A model generated the notes under the pieces. That model saw nothing but the letters and a program-made list of their open reading frames with translations, did not search any database and was not told the DNA's origin. Shown one piece after another: positions 8,239 through 16,839 of a stretch of 64,000 nucleotides of DNA (the stretch's first letter is position 1; each line of letters starts with the position of its first letter). This DNA is from Promethearchaeota archaeon (lineage in GTDB: Archaea; Asgardarchaeota; Lokiarchaeia; Sigyniarchaeales; SOKP01). The translations under genes were made by a program, and so were the position numbers. The stretch is taken from the NCBI GenBank assembly GCA_030599585.1, contig JAUVNS010000009.1, positions 96,001 to 160,000 on the forward strand, written 5' to 3'.

Positions 8239-8760
8239 ATGGCTAAATTTGGAATCATTTCTGACACGCATTTTGCTACTGATGATAAAAGCAAATTATA
8301 TTCTAAATTATTGAATCAATTAGAGGAAACTTTCAAAGATGTTGATGAAATAATACATGCTGGAGATGTTTGTGAATCATTTTTTCTTGACGATCTAGAA
8401 AACATCGCTCCAGTCCGATGCGTGCGAGGAGAGTCAGATACTATACCGGGTTTAGAGACTTTTATAAATTTTGAAGTTGGTAAATACACCCTCGGAATAA
8501 TACACAAGAAGCCTGAGAATACAGAAGATTTTTTTAAAGAGCATAGCATCCATATTCTAATTTATGGGCATACTCATCAACCACTTATTAAAGGAACTCC
8601 TTACAATACGTTATTAATCAATCCGGGCAGCCCAACTAAACCTATAGCCCCACTTCCTAAAAAAGGGTTTGACCAACCCATTGCAAGACCAAGTGTTATT
8701 ACCCTGAAGATTGATAATGATAATATTCTATCGACTTTTCTCATAAATCTGAATTTATGA
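8239..8760 (+). CDS. YfcE/MJ0936/Vps29-like metallophosphoesterase
   Basis: ISDTH, HAGD, GHTH, NPGSP motifs. The usual GNxD reads GESD. Confidence 0.85.
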   Translation: MAKFGIISDTHFATDDKSKLYSKLLNQLEETFKDVDEIIHAGDVCESFFLDDLENIAPVRCVRGESDTIPGLETFINFEVGKYTLGIIHKKPENTEDFFKEHSIHILIYGHTHQPLIKGTPYNTLLINPGSPTKPIAPLPKKGFDQPIARPSVITLKIDNDNILSTFLINLNL

Positions 8761-8861
8761 TAAAGTAAAATTAAATACTAAATAGTTCATAATATATATA
8801 CATCGTGTAATAAGTTTTTTTTATAAGTAATATCATAAAAGAATTTAAAGGAGTATTAACT

Positions 8862-9260
8862 GTGGTTAGCCGACTTGAACTTGTACTTAAAGAATTAAAT
8901 GAAAATGGGAATTTTAGAGCGTCATTGTTCTCTACTTCAACAGGATTAGTTTTAGCTTCCCAAAAAGCTGAAGTTGTTGATGATCGGGTTGTTGCAGCCA
9001 TGAGTTCCTTATTGAGCGATGCGGCATATAAAGCTTCTGAGGAAATGAACTTGTCCGTTCTTTCGAGTATAAAAATCAAATATATTGGGGATTATATTGT
9101 CTGTAGAAATATTATTATGCCTGATAAAAAAACACAATTTATTTTAGCAGTGTTATCCAATAGTCCCGAATCGTCCGAAATTGAAGCTTATTACGACCAA
9201 TTACTAGATTGGGCTGTTGATAACGCAACTCCAGATTTAGAAAAACTGTCTTCAATTTAA
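8862..9260 (+). CDS. Roadblock/LC7-domain protein
   Basis: 132 aa; pattern S..GLVLAS...DDRVVAAMSSLLSDAA.KA..E typical of Roadblock/MglB. Confidence 0.8.
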   Translation: MVSRLELVLKELNENGNFRASLFSTSTGLVLASQKAEVVDDRVVAAMSSLLSDAAYKASEEMNLSVLSSIKIKYIGDYIVCRNIIMPDKKTQFILAVLSNSPESSEIEAYYDQLLDWAVDNATPDLEKLSSI

Positions 9261-9322: not shown

Positions 9323-9997
9323 TTATTCTATAATCGATCTGTAAAAGTTATACGCTTCTTTAGCAACTTCTTGGGTAAATCCGATATAGAAATGGTCTGC
9401 TCCCTTGATTATTCTATACTGTTTCGGTTCTAAGTAGAAATTATAATGGTTTTCAAAATTTTCATAAATCGCCAAATTATCTCGATTTCCTTGAATAAAC
9501 AATTTTGGTTTTTTACTTTGAGATAGCTCTTTATATTTTAAACCCATAAAGTCCCAAGGAAAAGAAATAGCACAATATCCAATTATTTTTTCAGAATGAC
9601 TGATAGCAGAGCATCCTATAGCCGCACCGTAGGAATACCCGCATATAAATACTCTATCAAAATGTAAATCCCGCGTTAAATGGTCAATACATGCCTTAAC
9701 GTCGGATAATTCGCCTTTACCAATTGTAGGATTCCCCGTTGATTTACCAACCCCTCTAAAATTGAAGCGCATACATGAGATTTCCTTTTTAACGAATGAA
9801 TTAAAAACACCGGATACAACATTATTATGCATGTCCCCTCCATACTTTCCCTTTCTTGGGGTTTAAACCCTAAGAAATTGAGGATGTGGATGACACATTA
9901 ATGTAACGCAACTATGTGTTTCTTTTTCTATCTGAAAAACTTCAGCTTCAAGTTTTACTTCATTATTAAAAATAAACAATTTTTCAACGCTATGCAT
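9323..9997 (-). CDS. Alpha/beta hydrolase, two exons (9997-9879 + 9845-9323; 213 aa after splicing)
   Basis: ATG 9997 reads MHSVEKLF...LMCHPHPQ, then a 33-nt insert with TAA, then YGGDMHNNVV...RFNFRGVGKS...GYSYG...GNRD...GADHF (Ser-Asp-His triad intact). The ORF track shows only most of exon 2. Confidence 0.85.
9846..9878 (-). other. Candidate 33-nt bulge-helix-bulge (BHB) intron in a protein-coding gene
   Basis: mRNA parse: UCCACA-UCCU-CA^A-UUUCUUAGGG-UUUAAA-CCCCAAGAAA-GGGA-AA^G-UAUGGA. This gives an exon helix, a 4-bp central helix, two 3-nt bulges and an intron hairpin. Excision yields CAG (Gln) in frame. Confidence 0.8.
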
Positions 9998-10053: not shown

Positions 10054-10908
10054 ATGAGTTATAATCGCATTTTAATCGAAGAAAAACTAAAAAAGTTCTT
10101 AATTGAAGATAACTCTTTCATCGATGTTAGTTCAAAGGCCATTCCCAAAGAATCTGTATCCTCAGCTACAATCATCGCCAAAAGTGATGGATATTTGTCT
10201 GGTTTAGAAGAGTTGGGTATATTATATCAACTCTTAAAGGTGAACGTTATCAGAAACAAAGAAGATGGAGATCAAATCCATAAAGGTGATATCGTTGCGA
10301 AAATAGACGGAGAATCCAGAAATATATTGCTTGGTGAGCGGGTAGGTCTAAATCTTATGAGTCACATGAGTGCAATAACCTCAACTACCCGAAAATTTGT
10401 AAAAATAATTGAGGATTCTGGAAAAAATGTTAAAATAGCTTGTACAAGGAAGACTCTGCCTGGATTACGATTGTTTGAGAAAAAAGCGGTAGAAATCGGA
10501 AAAGGAGACACACACCGCTTTAATTTAGACGATATGGTACTATTAAAATCAACTCATTTAAGGTATTACAAAGGGAACATCGTAAAACTTCTCAAAGATG
10601 TGAAGTCTCGAGTTAGTTTCACAAAAAAAATAGAAATTGAAATAGAAAACGTAAATGATGTCCTTATTGCCGTTAAAAACAAAGCAGATATAATTATGCT
10701 GGATAACATGAATCCAGATAAAGTACAGGACGCCATTAACTTATTGAAACAAAATAAATTACGTAAACAAGTGATTATAGAAGTTTCTGGGAATATTACT
10801 CAAGAAAATATTTTTGACTATCTAATTTCAGAGCCCGATGTGATAAGTACGAGCGTTCTTACTCAAAAGCCTACTGAATTCGTAGATTATTCACTTCGAT
10901 TTGATTAA
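10054..10908 (+). CDS. nadC: Nicotinate-nucleotide diphosphorylase (quinolinate PRTase)
   Basis: LLGERVGLNL, CTRKTLPGLR, HRFNLDD, IEIE, DIIMLDNM, EVSG. Confidence 0.9.
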   Translation: MSYNRILIEEKLKKFLIEDNSFIDVSSKAIPKESVSSATIIAKSDGYLSGLEELGILYQLLKVNVIRNKEDGDQIHKGDIVAKIDGESRNILLGERVGLNLMSHMSAITSTTRKFVKIIEDSGKNVKIACTRKTLPGLRLFEKKAVEIGKGDTHRFNLDDMVLLKSTHLRYYKGNIVKLLKDVKSRVSFTKKIEIEIENVNDVLIAVKNKADIIMLDNMNPDKVQDAINLLKQNKLRKQVIIEVSGNITQENIFDYLISEPDVISTSVLTQKPTEFVDYSLRFD

Positions 10909-12199: not shown

Positions 12200-12892
12200 T
12201 CAATCCCGCCTCGTTTTTTGTTTAACTCTTAGTCTTTTTGGATAGCAGGCAAATAGGCTATTGAACATTTTTTCATGTTCTTCAAGATTTTCTTGAGGGA
12301 TGATTTGAGGTTTTCCAATTTGTAGCGCTCCCCAATACACTTTAGCTAATTTTTCAAGGATCACAGAAAAACGAACTGCATGATCCAACGACTTGCCACA
12401 TATTATAGCTCCATGATTAGCTAATATAGCCGCGTTATTTCTTCCTAACGCTTTTAAAGCACTAAGTCCCATTTCCTCTGTATGAGCTTCTGTAATCTCT
12501 GTACAATGAATTAATCCACCAAGAAAAATTAATTGTTGTTCCATAATAATTGGAATGTTTTTTCTAAGAACAGAAAGCATAGAAACATAAGAAGAGTGAT
12601 TATGAATGACACATTTTACTTTTGGTCTATCTTTATAAACTGCTAAATGCATTTTTACTTCTGTTGAGGGAATTCTTCCTGATCCGATTATATTCCCATC
12701 TAAATCCATATGAACGATTAAATCTGGATTTAATAGAAGATATTTTGTGGAAGTTGGAGTAACTAATATTTCGTTTTTATTAACCCTAACGCTAACATTA
12801 CCTTCACCGTCCTCAACTAAACCTTTGCTATAAATCTCTTGAGCTCCTCTTACAACCGTATTTCGAAGTTGTTCTAACTTATCTGTTTCCAT
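12200..12892 (-). CDS. Class II aldolase/adducin family protein (FucA-like)
   Basis: EGNVSVR, TPTS, PSTEVKMH, HNHS, LANHG. Confidence 0.9.
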   Translation of the reverse strand: METDKLEQLRNTVVRGAQEIYSKGLVEDGEGNVSVRVNKNEILVTPTSTKYLLLNPDLIVHMDLDGNIIGSGRIPSTEVKMHLAVYKDRPKVKCVIHNHSSYVSMLSVLRKNIPIIMEQQLIFLGGLIHCTEITEAHTEEMGLSALKALGRNNAAILANHGAIICGKSLDHAVRFSVILEKLAKVYWGALQIGKPQIIPQENLEEHEKMFNSLFACYPKRLRVKQKTRRD

Positions 12893-15156: not shown

Positions 15157-16839
15157 CTAAATTTTCTTAGAATCCTTAAATAGGTCAAAGATATCCATTT
15201 CATAATCTATTGTATCTTCAGGTAATAAGTTTGGCTCCTTAATTAATTTAGCAAGATAATATGTTTTTGATCCTCTCTCTAAATACTGTAGTACAGTGTA
15301 AGCTCCTTCTAAATGACTTCCACAACATAAACTCCCATGGTTGGCAAGGATTACCGCGCTTCTATCTTCTAAACTTGCTTTTACATTATCAGCTAATTCT
15401 TCACTTCCAGCCTCACCGTAATCCGAACATAAAACCTCTCCGCCTAAGTAGGGCACAAGTTCTTCCATAATTGGAGGTAACGACAAATTGAGAGTACTGA
15501 GTATTGTTGAGTACATTCCGTGAGAGTGAATAATTGCATTAACATCATCTCGATCTTTGTATATTCCTAAGTGTAGGTGTTTTTCTACTGAGGGATTTCT
15601 TTCTCCCTCGATCACTTTTCCCTCAAGATCAATAATTAAGATATCCTTAGCTTCCATTTCTTTATAGTTAACGTTACTAGGGGTGATTAAAACGAATTCT
15701 TCATCACCATTTTTAACTCTCATACTTACATTTCCGGCTGATCCAATAACATGGCCGTCTCTTAATAATTTTCTACAAACACTAACAATCTCTTCTTTAT
15801 AGCTTTGGGCAGGTTCCTTATTCTTATCTTGTTTAACATCTTTTACTCCAAATACTTCGGGGTTTAATACATGAGAAGGAATCCCATTGTTTAACCAAAT
15901 GTTAATATCTTTAAGGAGCATTTGAGATTGTCTCTTAACTACATCATTTGTATTTCCCCCAATATGAGGCATTACGATAGCATTATCTAATTCTAAAAAC
16001 TCATTATCTTCATCAATGGGCTCTAAAGGGAATACATCTAAAGCAACTCCAGCGATCTCGTTATTCTTTAAAGCTCTGTATAAATAATCGTAATCAACGA
16101 GGCTTCCTTTAGCCAAATTTATTAAATATCCAGAGCTTTTCATCATTTTTATCCGTTCTTCGTTAATAAGATTATCATTTTCATCAGTTGCTACTGCATG
16201 TAAGGTAATAAAATCTGATTCTTTCATTAAAAAGTCAAGGTCTGTCTTGTCGCCGTACTCTTTAACAAATTCCTCGGAAACATATGGATCATATATTAGT
16301 AATTTAACACCAAATGGTTTTAATCGTTCGGCTACTCTTTGCCCAATTTGACCAAAACCAACTATGCCTATTGTTTTACTTTCCAATTCACTTCCCATGA
16401 ATTTATTATAACAATTAATCCAATCTTCAAACTCAATAATTTCAAAATCCTCGGAATGTAGGAATCGATCTAGTTTAGTAAGATTTCTTGCCATAGATAT
16501 TATTAAACCAACAGTTAATTCAGCAACTGAAACGACATTCCTGTTTGGCGTGTAAATAATAGGTATATTTTTTTTGGTAGCAGCGTCTAAATTAATGTTA
16601 AAAGGATCACCACGACAAGACGCAATCAGCTTCAAGTTTGTCTGTTCAAAAAGTTCTGCTTTTTTTAAATCATCTGCTACAGTTATGAAGACGTCATAAT
16701 TCCTTAATTTTTCAATCATCTCTTTAATGTCAAAATATATAATTCCAGTATCTCTCCAACTCTCATAGGTTACTTCCATTTTCTTTCGCAATTCTTCTAA
16801 AACATCATCAGTTATACTTGCTGTTATAAATGCTCTCAT
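15157..16839 (-). CDS. Fusion of D-2-hydroxyacid dehydrogenase (SerA-like) and class II aldolase
   Basis: N-part: GIVGFGQIG, LDVFPLEP, PHIGG. C-part: AGNVSMR, PSVEKHLH, HSHG, LANHG. Confidence 0.88.
   Translation of the reverse strand: MRAFITASITDDVLEELRKKMEVTYESWRDTGIIYFDIKEMIEKLRNYDVFITVADDLKKAELFEQTNLKLIASCRGDPFNINLDAATKKNIPIIYTPNRNVVSVAELTVGLIISMARNLTKLDRFLHSEDFEIIEFEDWINCYNKFMGSELESKTIGIVGFGQIGQRVAERLKPFGVKLLIYDPYVSEEFVKEYGDKTDLDFLMKESDFITLHAVATDENDNLINEERIKMMKSSGYLINLAKGSLVDYDYLYRALKNNEIAGVALDVFPLEPIDEDNEFLELDNAIVMPHIGGNTNDVVKRQSQMLLKDINIWLNNGIPSHVLNPEVFGVKDVKQDKNKEPAQSYKEEIVSVCRKLLRDGHVIGSAGNVSMRVKNGDEEFVLITPSNVNYKEMEAKDILIIDLEGKVIEGERNPSVEKHLHLGIYKDRDDVNAIIHSHGMYSTILSTLNLSLPPIMEELVPYLGGEVLCSDYGEAGSEELADNVKASLEDRSAVILANHGSLCCGSHLEGAYTVLQYLERGSKTYYLAKLIKEPNLLPEDTIDYEMDIFDLFKDSKKI

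What the first reader, a model, noticed from the sequence alone, without database searches (positions are those of the whole stretch)
9839..9890. Canonical bulge-helix-bulge intron inside an Asgard-like protein-coding gene
Seen: the hydrolase's conserved HPHPQYGGDMHN motif is split by 33 nt containing an in-frame TAA (9865-9863), so the unspliced RNA encodes only 44 aa. The mRNA folds as an exon helix UCCACA/UAUGGA (5 of 6 pairs), a 4-bp central helix UCCU/GGGA, 3-nt bulges CAA and AAG on opposite strands, and an intron stem UUUCUUAGGG/CCCCAAGAAA. Established: archaeal EndA cuts after the second nt of each bulge. Applying that rule removes exactly 9878-9846 and joins CA+G = CAG (Gln), giving a 213-aa enzyme with an intact triad. 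BHB introns are common in tRNA/rRNA; in mRNA I know them mainly from crenarchaeal cbf5. Inference: EndA/RtcB-dependent mRNA splicing in this lineage, possibly gating expression. More such introns would be mis-annotated as truncated genes.
Basis: partly seen in the sequence, partly recalled or inferred. Interest (0 to 1): 0.93.

Follow-up and report, generated by a model that had tools for sequence, protein, structure and literature searches.

The report
tRNA-type mini-intron splits Asgard hydrolase gene
An ordinary enzyme gene of an Asgard (Loki-type) archaeon is broken by a 33-base insert shaped like the introns that archaea cut out of tRNAs, and comparison with related genomes indicates that the messenger RNA must be spliced before the enzyme can be made, which the papers I could search report for the coding part of only one other archaeal gene.

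Summary
Observation confirmed. A 33-nt insert (9878-9846, minus strand) with an in-frame TAA splits the HPHPQ|YGG motif of an alpha/beta hydrolase in a Promethearchaeota (Lokiarchaeia) genome. It can form a canonical bulge-helix-bulge; cutting by the EndA rule gives a 213-aa protein with S111/D162/H191.

Comparative evidence:
- 24 other genomes of the genus carry a 30-, 31- or 33-nt insert at the same base; others have none.
- The central helix is invariant, and the intron stem shows compensatory changes.
- The 31-nt alleles shift the frame and the stop is TAA, TGA or TAG, which argues against readthrough.
- Exon 1 is under purifying selection (dN/dS 0.26; 0.27 without the intron).
- The genome encodes two EndA subunits and RtcB; its only uL11 and uS3 genes have similar inserts.

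Also seen: an unrelated second intron one base downstream in other lineages, and a ~39-nt foreign exon tract beside one intron gain.

The scan has already reported this same intron in other genomes and many like it. In print I found only cbf5 and a Haloferax 5' UTR.

The parts
9879..9997 (-). Exon 1: ATG 9997 to the first two bases of Gln40. Encodes three of the eight beta-strands and the HPHP motif.
   Evidence: strands E5-10, E15-21, E30-35 in the model of intron-less ortholog P0024; dN/dS 0.26
9846..9878 (-). 33-nt BHB intron, predicted to be cut out by EndA
9863..9865 (-). In-frame TAA inside the intron; the unspliced product is 44 aa
9885..9890 (-). 5' strand of the exon-exon helix (UCCACA)
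9881..9884 (-). 5' strand of the 4-bp central helix (UCCU, exon-encoded: last base of His38 codon plus Pro39 codon)
   Evidence: CAT CCT in 25/25 intron contexts versus 17/28 intron-less genes
9878..9880 (-). 5' 3-nt bulge CAA; predicted cut between 9879 and 9878
   Evidence: EndA rule from established knowledge and PMC2738675
9852..9877 (-). Intron hairpin (26 nt, -9.0 kcal/mol)
   Evidence: 4 of 9 pairs with two-sided changes
9848..9851 (-). 3' strand of the central helix (GGGA, intron-encoded)
   Evidence: invariant in 24 distinct alleles
9845..9847 (-). 3' 3-nt bulge AAG; predicted cut between 9846 and 9845
9839..9844 (-). 3' strand of the exon-exon helix (UAUGGA)
9323..9845 (-). Exon 2: last base of Gln40 to the stop. 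Carries Ser111 (9634-9632), Asp162 (9481-9479) and His191 (9394-9392). Gene callers start it at ATG 9832 as a 169-aa fragment.
   Evidence: PF20408; S111, D162, H191 invariant in 58 full-length homologs; dN/dS 0.21
10054..10908 (+). nadC, the divergent upstream neighbour. Context only; syntenic in intron-bearing and intron-less relatives and used as an independent tree marker.

Best explanation
The insert is a real intron of the tRNA (bulge-helix-bulge) type inside the mRNA of a single-copy Atu1826/XC6422-like alpha/beta hydrolase. The transcript folds so that the His-Pro codons of exon 1 pair with GGGA at the intron's end. The two-subunit splicing endonuclease cuts after the second base of each 3-nt bulge, RtcB joins the exons (CA+G), and the 213-aa enzyme is translated. 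Unspliced RNA gives only a 44-aa peptide. Shown: the sequence, its conservation, selection on both exons, and the presence of the enzymes. Inferred: folding in vivo, cleavage, ligation. The intron is most likely a tolerated passenger that is gained and lost among relatives, sometimes with flanking exon DNA, not a regulatory switch.
For: (1) Inserts at exactly the same base in 24 of 41 other genomes of the genus and 1 of another genus; none with this pattern in the other 11 genera of the family. Intron-less orthologs read HPHPxYGG or HPHPxFGG directly. (2) Lengths are 30, 31 and 33 nt, and the EndA rule restores the frame in all 25 contexts. (3) Central helix 100% paired and invariant; 21 cells with two-sided changes against 5.6 in shuffles (0/500) and at most 8 in slid controls; column 25/44 is C-G 9, U-A 9, U-G 6. 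(4) Every allele is unreadable unspliced: stops are TAA, TGA or TAG at different codons, or the frame shifts. (5) dN/dS over 10 disjoint intron-bearing pairs is 0.26 for exon 1 and 0.21 for exon 2, against 0.27 and 0.19 in intron-less pairs. (6) Two EndA paralogs and RtcB are in the genome. (7) The only uL11 and uS3 genes carry 28- and 30-nt BHB-like inserts that break the frame, so this organism needs some such repair. (8) A second, unrelated 30-nt intron one base downstream in other lineages forms its own BHB. (9) Precedent: cbf5 (PMC2738675).
Against: No full-length protein nearly identical to an intron-bearing allele was among the 120 hits listed. The predicted minimum-energy fold is a slipped alternative, not the BHB. 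The central helix never varies, so it offers no covariation, and the exon helix is largely fixed by the protein. Related genomes are not independent, so the shuffle counts overstate significance. An ab initio genome scan found no excess of canonical BHB geometry over control geometries, so BHB shape alone proves little.
Confidence: 0.9

Rival explanations
1. Translational bypassing or programmed frameshifting: the ribosome hops over the hairpin, with no RNA cut.
For: A stable hairpin with a stop codon resembles known bypass signals (recalled: T4 gene 60). It would also keep both exons under selection. No RNA data exclude it.
Against: Three different insert lengths, two independent inserts one base apart, and inserts in five other genes all keep the 4-bp/3-nt/3-nt geometry that matches EndA and has no known role in bypassing. 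Take-off and landing codons do not match in the window's allele (CAA vs AAG).
Confidence: 0.03
2. Stop-codon readthrough or recoding (Sec or Pyl) giving an enzyme with an 11-residue loop.
For: The window's insert is in frame, and most alleles are 30 or 33 nt.
Against: Four 31-nt alleles shift the frame. The stop is TAA, TGA or TAG at different codons. No full-length homolog has an insertion between HPHP and GG. The insert would sit in an invariant motif.
Confidence: 0.015
3. Split gene: a 44-aa peptide and a re-initiated 169-aa protein (ATG 9832) that assemble, or the 169-aa piece works alone.
For: An ATG lies five codons after the insert, and gene callers predict this protein. Complementing fragments could keep exon 1 under selection.
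Against: That Met is part of the family motif in intron-less genes too, and is CTG in L008/L026. The fragment lacks three core strands and HPHP. Tyr-Gly-Gly between insert and Met stays conserved although this model would not translate it. It does not explain the conserved BHB.
Confidence: 0.03
4. Pseudogene disrupted by a small palindromic insertion, or an assembly artefact.
For: The enzyme's function is unknown and may be dispensable; MAGs can hold errors.
Against: The insert is present in 25 other genomes plus independent contigs. No further stop or frameshift occurs in 24 alleles, and GxSxG and DHF are kept in 24/24. dN/dS is 0.2-0.26.
Confidence: 0.01
5. Spliced as in the best explanation, and also a regulatory gate that ties enzyme output to EndA/RtcB activity.
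For: All alleles examined block translation when unspliced. Negative regulation was proposed for cbf5. The BHB competes with an alternative fold.
Against: Close relatives lack the intron; at least three changes on both the hydrolase and nadC trees. Stops in AT-rich inserts are common by chance, and they may only guard against a dead full-length product.
Confidence: 0.15

Closest known systems
BHB intron in the cbf5 (pseudouridine synthase) pre-mRNA of Desulfurococcales and Sulfolobales (Watanabe 2002; Yoshinari 2006; Yokobori 2009, PMC2738675)
   Same: Short intron inside a coding sequence at a conserved motif; borders after the second base of each bulge; hetero-oligomeric EndA; patchy gain and loss; missed by annotation.
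   Different: Different phylum and gene. The BHB here is canonical, whereas most cbf5 BHBs are described as unconventional. Several genes per genome are affected, including uL11 and uS3. Two independent introns sit one base apart. cbf5 splicing is shown by cDNA; this one is not yet.
HVO_1309 5' UTR intron of Haloferax volcanii (Schwarz 2020, PMC7714728)
   Same: BHB intron in an mRNA, cut by the tRNA splicing endonuclease.
   Different: It lies in the untranslated leader, so the reading frame does not depend on it.
Non-canonical tRNA introns of Asgard archaea (PMC11291895; bioRxiv 10.64898/2026.10.13.758758)
   Same: Same motif, similar size, repeated gains, same enzymes. This genome's tRNAs also carry short inserts.
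   Different: Those papers cover tRNA only ('mRNA' occurs 0 times in the preprint), and the preprint found no general route of arrival. The insert has no copy elsewhere in this genome.
Atu1826 / XC6422 / PDB 3TRD alpha/beta hydrolases (PF20408)
   Same: Host protein: E 1e-29 to 3TRD over residues 8-196 of the intron-less ortholog, with the same HPHPxxGGxM motif.
   Different: Those chains are uninterrupted at the motif; the substrate of the Asgard enzyme is unknown.

Membership tests
Archaeal BHB (EndA-spliced) intron | 4-bp central helix | tested here: met
   UCCU/GGGA, 4 of 4 pairs in all 25 contexts
Archaeal BHB (EndA-spliced) intron | Two 3-nt bulges on opposite strands, each 3' of the central helix | tested here: met
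   CAA or GAA, and AAG or AAA
Archaeal BHB (EndA-spliced) intron | Flanking intron and exon helices | tested here: met
   85% and 87.5% of cells paired; two-sided changes in 4 of 9 intron pairs
Archaeal BHB (EndA-spliced) intron | Cutting after the second bulge base restores the functional RNA | tested here: met
   Restores HPHPxYGG or HPHPxFGG for 30-, 31- and 33-nt alleles
Archaeal BHB (EndA-spliced) intron | BHB is the favoured fold of the precursor | tested here: inconclusive
   Predicted 2 kcal/mol above a slipped fold for the window's allele; the BHB is the minimum-energy fold for the second intron type in L076
Archaeal BHB (EndA-spliced) intron | Host encodes EndA and an RNA ligase | tested here: met
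   Two PF01974 genes with open frames and one RtcB
Archaeal BHB (EndA-spliced) intron | Spliced RNA or circular intron observed; cleavage by EndA | not testable with these tools
Group I / group II self-splicing intron | Ribozyme core of hundreds of bases | tested here: not met
   33 nt; no Rfam match beyond one chance hit on the opposite strand, E 0.24
Homing-endonuclease-mobilised intron | Endonuclease gene in or beside the intron | tested here: not met
   nadC directly abuts the gene in the window and in all intron-bearing loci mapped; the LAGLIDADG of L083 has no tblastn match in this genome. It was seen only beside the second intron type.
Alpha/beta hydrolase, PF20408 / Atu1826-like | Ser-Asp-His triad and GxSxG elbow | tested here: met
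   S111, D162, H191 present and invariant in 58 homologs; PF20408 E 3e-10. Activity not tested.

The most novel reading that the evidence does not exclude
This Lokiarchaeia family routinely splices protein-coding mRNAs, including essential ones, with the tRNA endonuclease. The ~30-nt introns are mobile at the DNA level: they arise at self-complementary exon spots (twice independently at this motif) and spread between lineages by gene conversion with short 5' exon tracts, at times helped by free-standing LAGLIDADG nucleases. That would be an intron-exon gene system in the closest archaeal relatives of eukaryotes, independent of group II introns and the spliceosome.
Probability: 0.5. Interest if true: 0.9.

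Novelty: new variant of a known kind. Interest (0 to 1): 0.76.

Why it matters
In the papers I could search, splicing inside an archaeal coding sequence is documented for one gene, cbf5. If this holds, Asgard archaea carry such introns in several genes per genome, including ribosomal proteins, so EndA and RtcB would be needed for protein expression as well as for tRNA maturation. Gene catalogues of these genomes are wrong at these sites: the intron-bearing alleles are deposited as 168-169-aa fragments. The site is a compact test case, with a canonical BHB, 24 natural alleles, intron-less sisters about 90% identical, and a second intron one base away. It also gives a handle on how BHB introns arrive, which a 2026 preprint on Asgard tRNA introns leaves open. 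There is no evidence of kinship to spliceosomal introns.

Tried and rejected

Spliced product in databases: P0024 lies on Logan contigs that span divergent genes, so it reads as an intron-less DNA allele. P0096 and P0029 are on assembly contigs with the same gene order and are only 85% and 75% identical to the nearest intron-bearing allele. A degenerate search for the joined junction in JGI contigs gave one hit, L075, an uninterrupted gene that I took as genomic and did not place further.

Ab initio genome-wide BHB scans: canonical geometry was not enriched over controls (16 vs 7-14; 10 vs 6-13 at the strictest energy among 4-bp geometries). The first scan missed the target itself. Rejected as a way to count introns.

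The slicing was off by one base and was redone.

Rfam and promoter/terminator scans showed nothing above chance. No second copy of the intron exists in the genome.

A single vertical origin with no loss was rejected: AU p = 0.0004 on the nadC tree. PMC3064391 (Tocchini-Valentini 2011) was not held; Watanabe 2002 and Yoshinari 2006 were seen only as citations.

Full report
OBSERVATION. The window is G000:C32:96001-160000 of a 4.85-Mb, 52-contig genome. Its closest relatives are named Promethearchaeota/Lokiarchaeia MAGs. On the minus strand an ORF from ATG 9997 reads to HPHPQ and stops at TAA 9865-9863 after 44 aa; the same frame resumes YGGDMHN and runs to 9323. Removing 9878-9846 (33 nt) gives 213 aa. 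The region folds better than all 200 shuffles (z -2.96). ViennaRNA, however, prefers a slipped pairing by 2 kcal/mol and gives the strict BHB about 1% for the 52-nt piece. I count that as weak evidence against; my recollection is that bulged motifs are penalised by these energy rules.

HOST GENE. The C-terminal part matches PF20408 (E 3e-10). The intron-less ortholog P0024 matches PDB 3TRD (E 1e-29), Atu1826 and XC6422; the two alignments printed (3TRD, Atu1826) run through HPHPxxGGxM without a gap. H36, P37, P39, G42, G43, S111, D162 and H191 are invariant in 58 full-length homologs. The P0024 model (pLDDT 95) puts three of eight strands in what is exon 1 here. The gene is single-copy in G000.

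ORTHOLOGS. A pattern for the insert matches 24 of 41 other genomes of the genus, one genome of a second genus, and none in 11 further genera; the reversed control pattern gave 0. Other genomes of the same genus have the uninterrupted motif at the same place beside nadC. The 25 distinct contexts hold 24 distinct introns of 30, 31 or 33 nt, all at the same base. All keep UCCU/GGGA and two 3-nt bulges, and all are repaired by the EndA rule. On the alignment, 89% of cells pair, and 21 cells show two-sided changes against 5.6 in shuffles (0/500) and at most 8 in slid controls; pair 25/44 is C-G 9, U-A 9, U-G 6. The exon codons that form the central helix are CAT CCT in 25/25 intron contexts and 17/28 intron-less genes. 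Relatives are not independent, so these counts are indicative only.

RIVALS. Readthrough fails because four alleles are 31 nt and shift the frame, and the stop is TAA, TGA or TAG at different codons. No full-length homolog has an insert at this motif. A pseudogene fails because the 24 spliced alleles are all open (208-225 aa) with GxSxG and DHF kept. dN/dS over ten disjoint pairs is 0.26 for exon 1 and 0.21 for exon 2, as in intron-less pairs (0.27 and 0.19). Re-initiation at ATG 9832 would lose three strands and HPHP, and that codon is CTG in one lineage. Ribosomal bypassing cannot be excluded without RNA but does not explain the geometry.

MACHINERY AND OTHER GENES. The genome has two EndA paralogs with open frames, consistent with an (alpha-beta)2 enzyme, and one RtcB. 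Following earlier scan notes, I checked other genes. The only uL11 gene has a 28-nt frameshifting insert (C28:32757-32730), the only uS3 gene a 30-nt insert with stops, and two RadA paralogs have 31-nt inserts, beside an intact paralog that reads GGNIVAH. All have BHB or relaxed BHB shapes whose removal restores the frame. A structure-blind census used 2.0 Mb (46%) of a complete genome of another family as reference, giving about 578 well-matched 500-nt bins. It found three clear inserts: uL11, this hydrolase (BHB p 0.003) and a 30-nt one in an Elf1-like gene (name from memory; C32:69782-69753). So at least six are present and the density is low, of the order of 0.5% of conserved loci. The method misses stop-free in-frame inserts and introns shared with the reference. 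Ab initio scans could not count introns.

HISTORY. Both the hydrolase tree and an independent nadC tree need at least three changes of state. Intron-less alleles (L031, L067/L068) nest inside the 33-nt clade with starred support, and one clade for all intron carriers is rejected (AU p 0.0004). The trees are unrooted and the gene itself is mosaic, so gain and loss cannot be fully polarised. Three observations bear on mobility. (a) L036 and L039 (30-nt intron) are about 90% identical to intron-less sisters except for the 39 nt just before HPHP, where 16 of 39 match (Fisher p about 1e-11). That tract matches a different lineage (L030, 31 of 39), while the sisters' tract is closer to their own outgroup (L057, 25-27 of 39). 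This reads as an intron gain with a short co-converted 5' tract; it is one event, and the best-matching donor-like alleles are themselves intron-less. (b) L076/L077, L078 and L079 carry a different 30-nt intron one base downstream (phase 0), with central helix CCUC/GAGG or variants. This looks like an independent gain at the same self-complementary spot. (c) In L083 a 570-aa LAGLIDADG gene lies between nadC and the gene with that second intron; it has no match in G000.

MECHANISM. Shown: sequence, conservation, selection, enzymes present. Inferred: the transcript forms the BHB, EndA cuts at 9879/9878 and 9846/9845, RtcB joins CA+G, and the 213-aa hydrolase is made. Confidence 0.9. Regulation by splicing is untested; patchy presence among close relatives argues that the intron is tolerated and not needed.

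WHAT IS KNOWN. cbf5 pre-mRNA splicing in Crenarchaeota is shown by cDNA. That paper says introns in other protein genes were predicted but unconfirmed (PMC2738675). A 2020 paper adds a Haloferax 5' UTR intron and calls cbf5 the only earlier mRNA case (PMC7714728). Papers on Asgard introns cover tRNA (PMC11291895; 10.64898/2026.10.13.758758). Seven literature searches found no report of Asgard mRNA BHB introns, but the library lacks most subscription journals. Within this scan the same hydrolase intron was reported in other genomes (e1-3024574, e1-5564855, e1-5555586, e1-5574265). Notes on other genes claim spliced RNA (e1-5425605, e1-5583151); I could not check those and do not count them as support.

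VERDICT. Real, and very probably an EndA/RtcB-spliced mRNA intron. It meets every BHB feature testable from sequence except that the BHB is not the predicted favoured fold, and it lacks direct RNA proof. New variant of a known kind; interest 0.76.

Noticed in passing
L076/L077:~540-600, L078:~540-600, L079:~95-152: A second, unrelated 30-nt BHB intron in the same motif, one base downstream (after the whole Gln codon), central helix CCUC/GAGG, GGGG or GUGG, each with an in-frame stop.
   Followed up: partly
L083:2694-4406: 570-aa LAGLIDADG-domain gene inserted between nadC and the hydrolase that carries the second intron type; exon 1 there is less similar to the intron-less relative L032 than exon 2 is.
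   Followed up: partly
L036 and L039, 39 nt upstream of the HPHP codons: Foreign exon tract (16/39 identical to ~90%-identical intron-less sisters; 31/39 to another lineage) directly 5' of the intron, a possible gene-conversion footprint.
   Followed up: yes
window 9323-9560 (minus): The 3' third of exon 2 is only 55-73% identical to the closest relatives (L002, L003, L012, L019; ~90% elsewhere) but 82-93% to L001/L010, so the gene is a recombinant. An independent contig (L080) is nearly identical throughout, so it is not a mis-assembly.
   Followed up: partly
G000 C28:32757-32730 (L127): Only uL11 gene broken by a 28-nt BHB-like insert; several genus relatives have inserts at this site or at a second one upstream.
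   Followed up: yes
G000 C11 near 38150 (L146): Only uS3 gene broken by a 30-nt hairpin insert with TAG and TAA.
   Followed up: partly
G000 C49:50207-50237 and C12:53171-53201: Two RadA paralogs carry different 31-nt BHB-like inserts at the same GGN|IVAH site; the paralog on C20 is intact.
   Followed up: yes
G000 C32:69782-69753: 30-nt hairpin insert with a stop in a small zinc-ribbon gene that looks like Elf1 (named from memory); relaxed BHB.
   Followed up: partly
whole genome: ARAGORN finds only 21 tRNA genes, several mis-called, with short inserts at non-canonical positions.
   Followed up: no
window 15157-16839 (minus): 560-aa ORF that looks like a fusion of a D-2-hydroxyacid dehydrogenase and a class II aldolase domain; a stand-alone aldolase-like gene lies at 12200-12892.
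   Followed up: no
window 8239-9260 (plus): Metallophosphoesterase-fold gene (PF12850) with GESD in place of GNxD, followed by a 132-aa roadblock-like gene with no Pfam hit.
   Followed up: no
L040 (G056): About 830 extra bases between nadC and the intron-less hydrolase gene compared with other loci; not examined.
   Followed up: no
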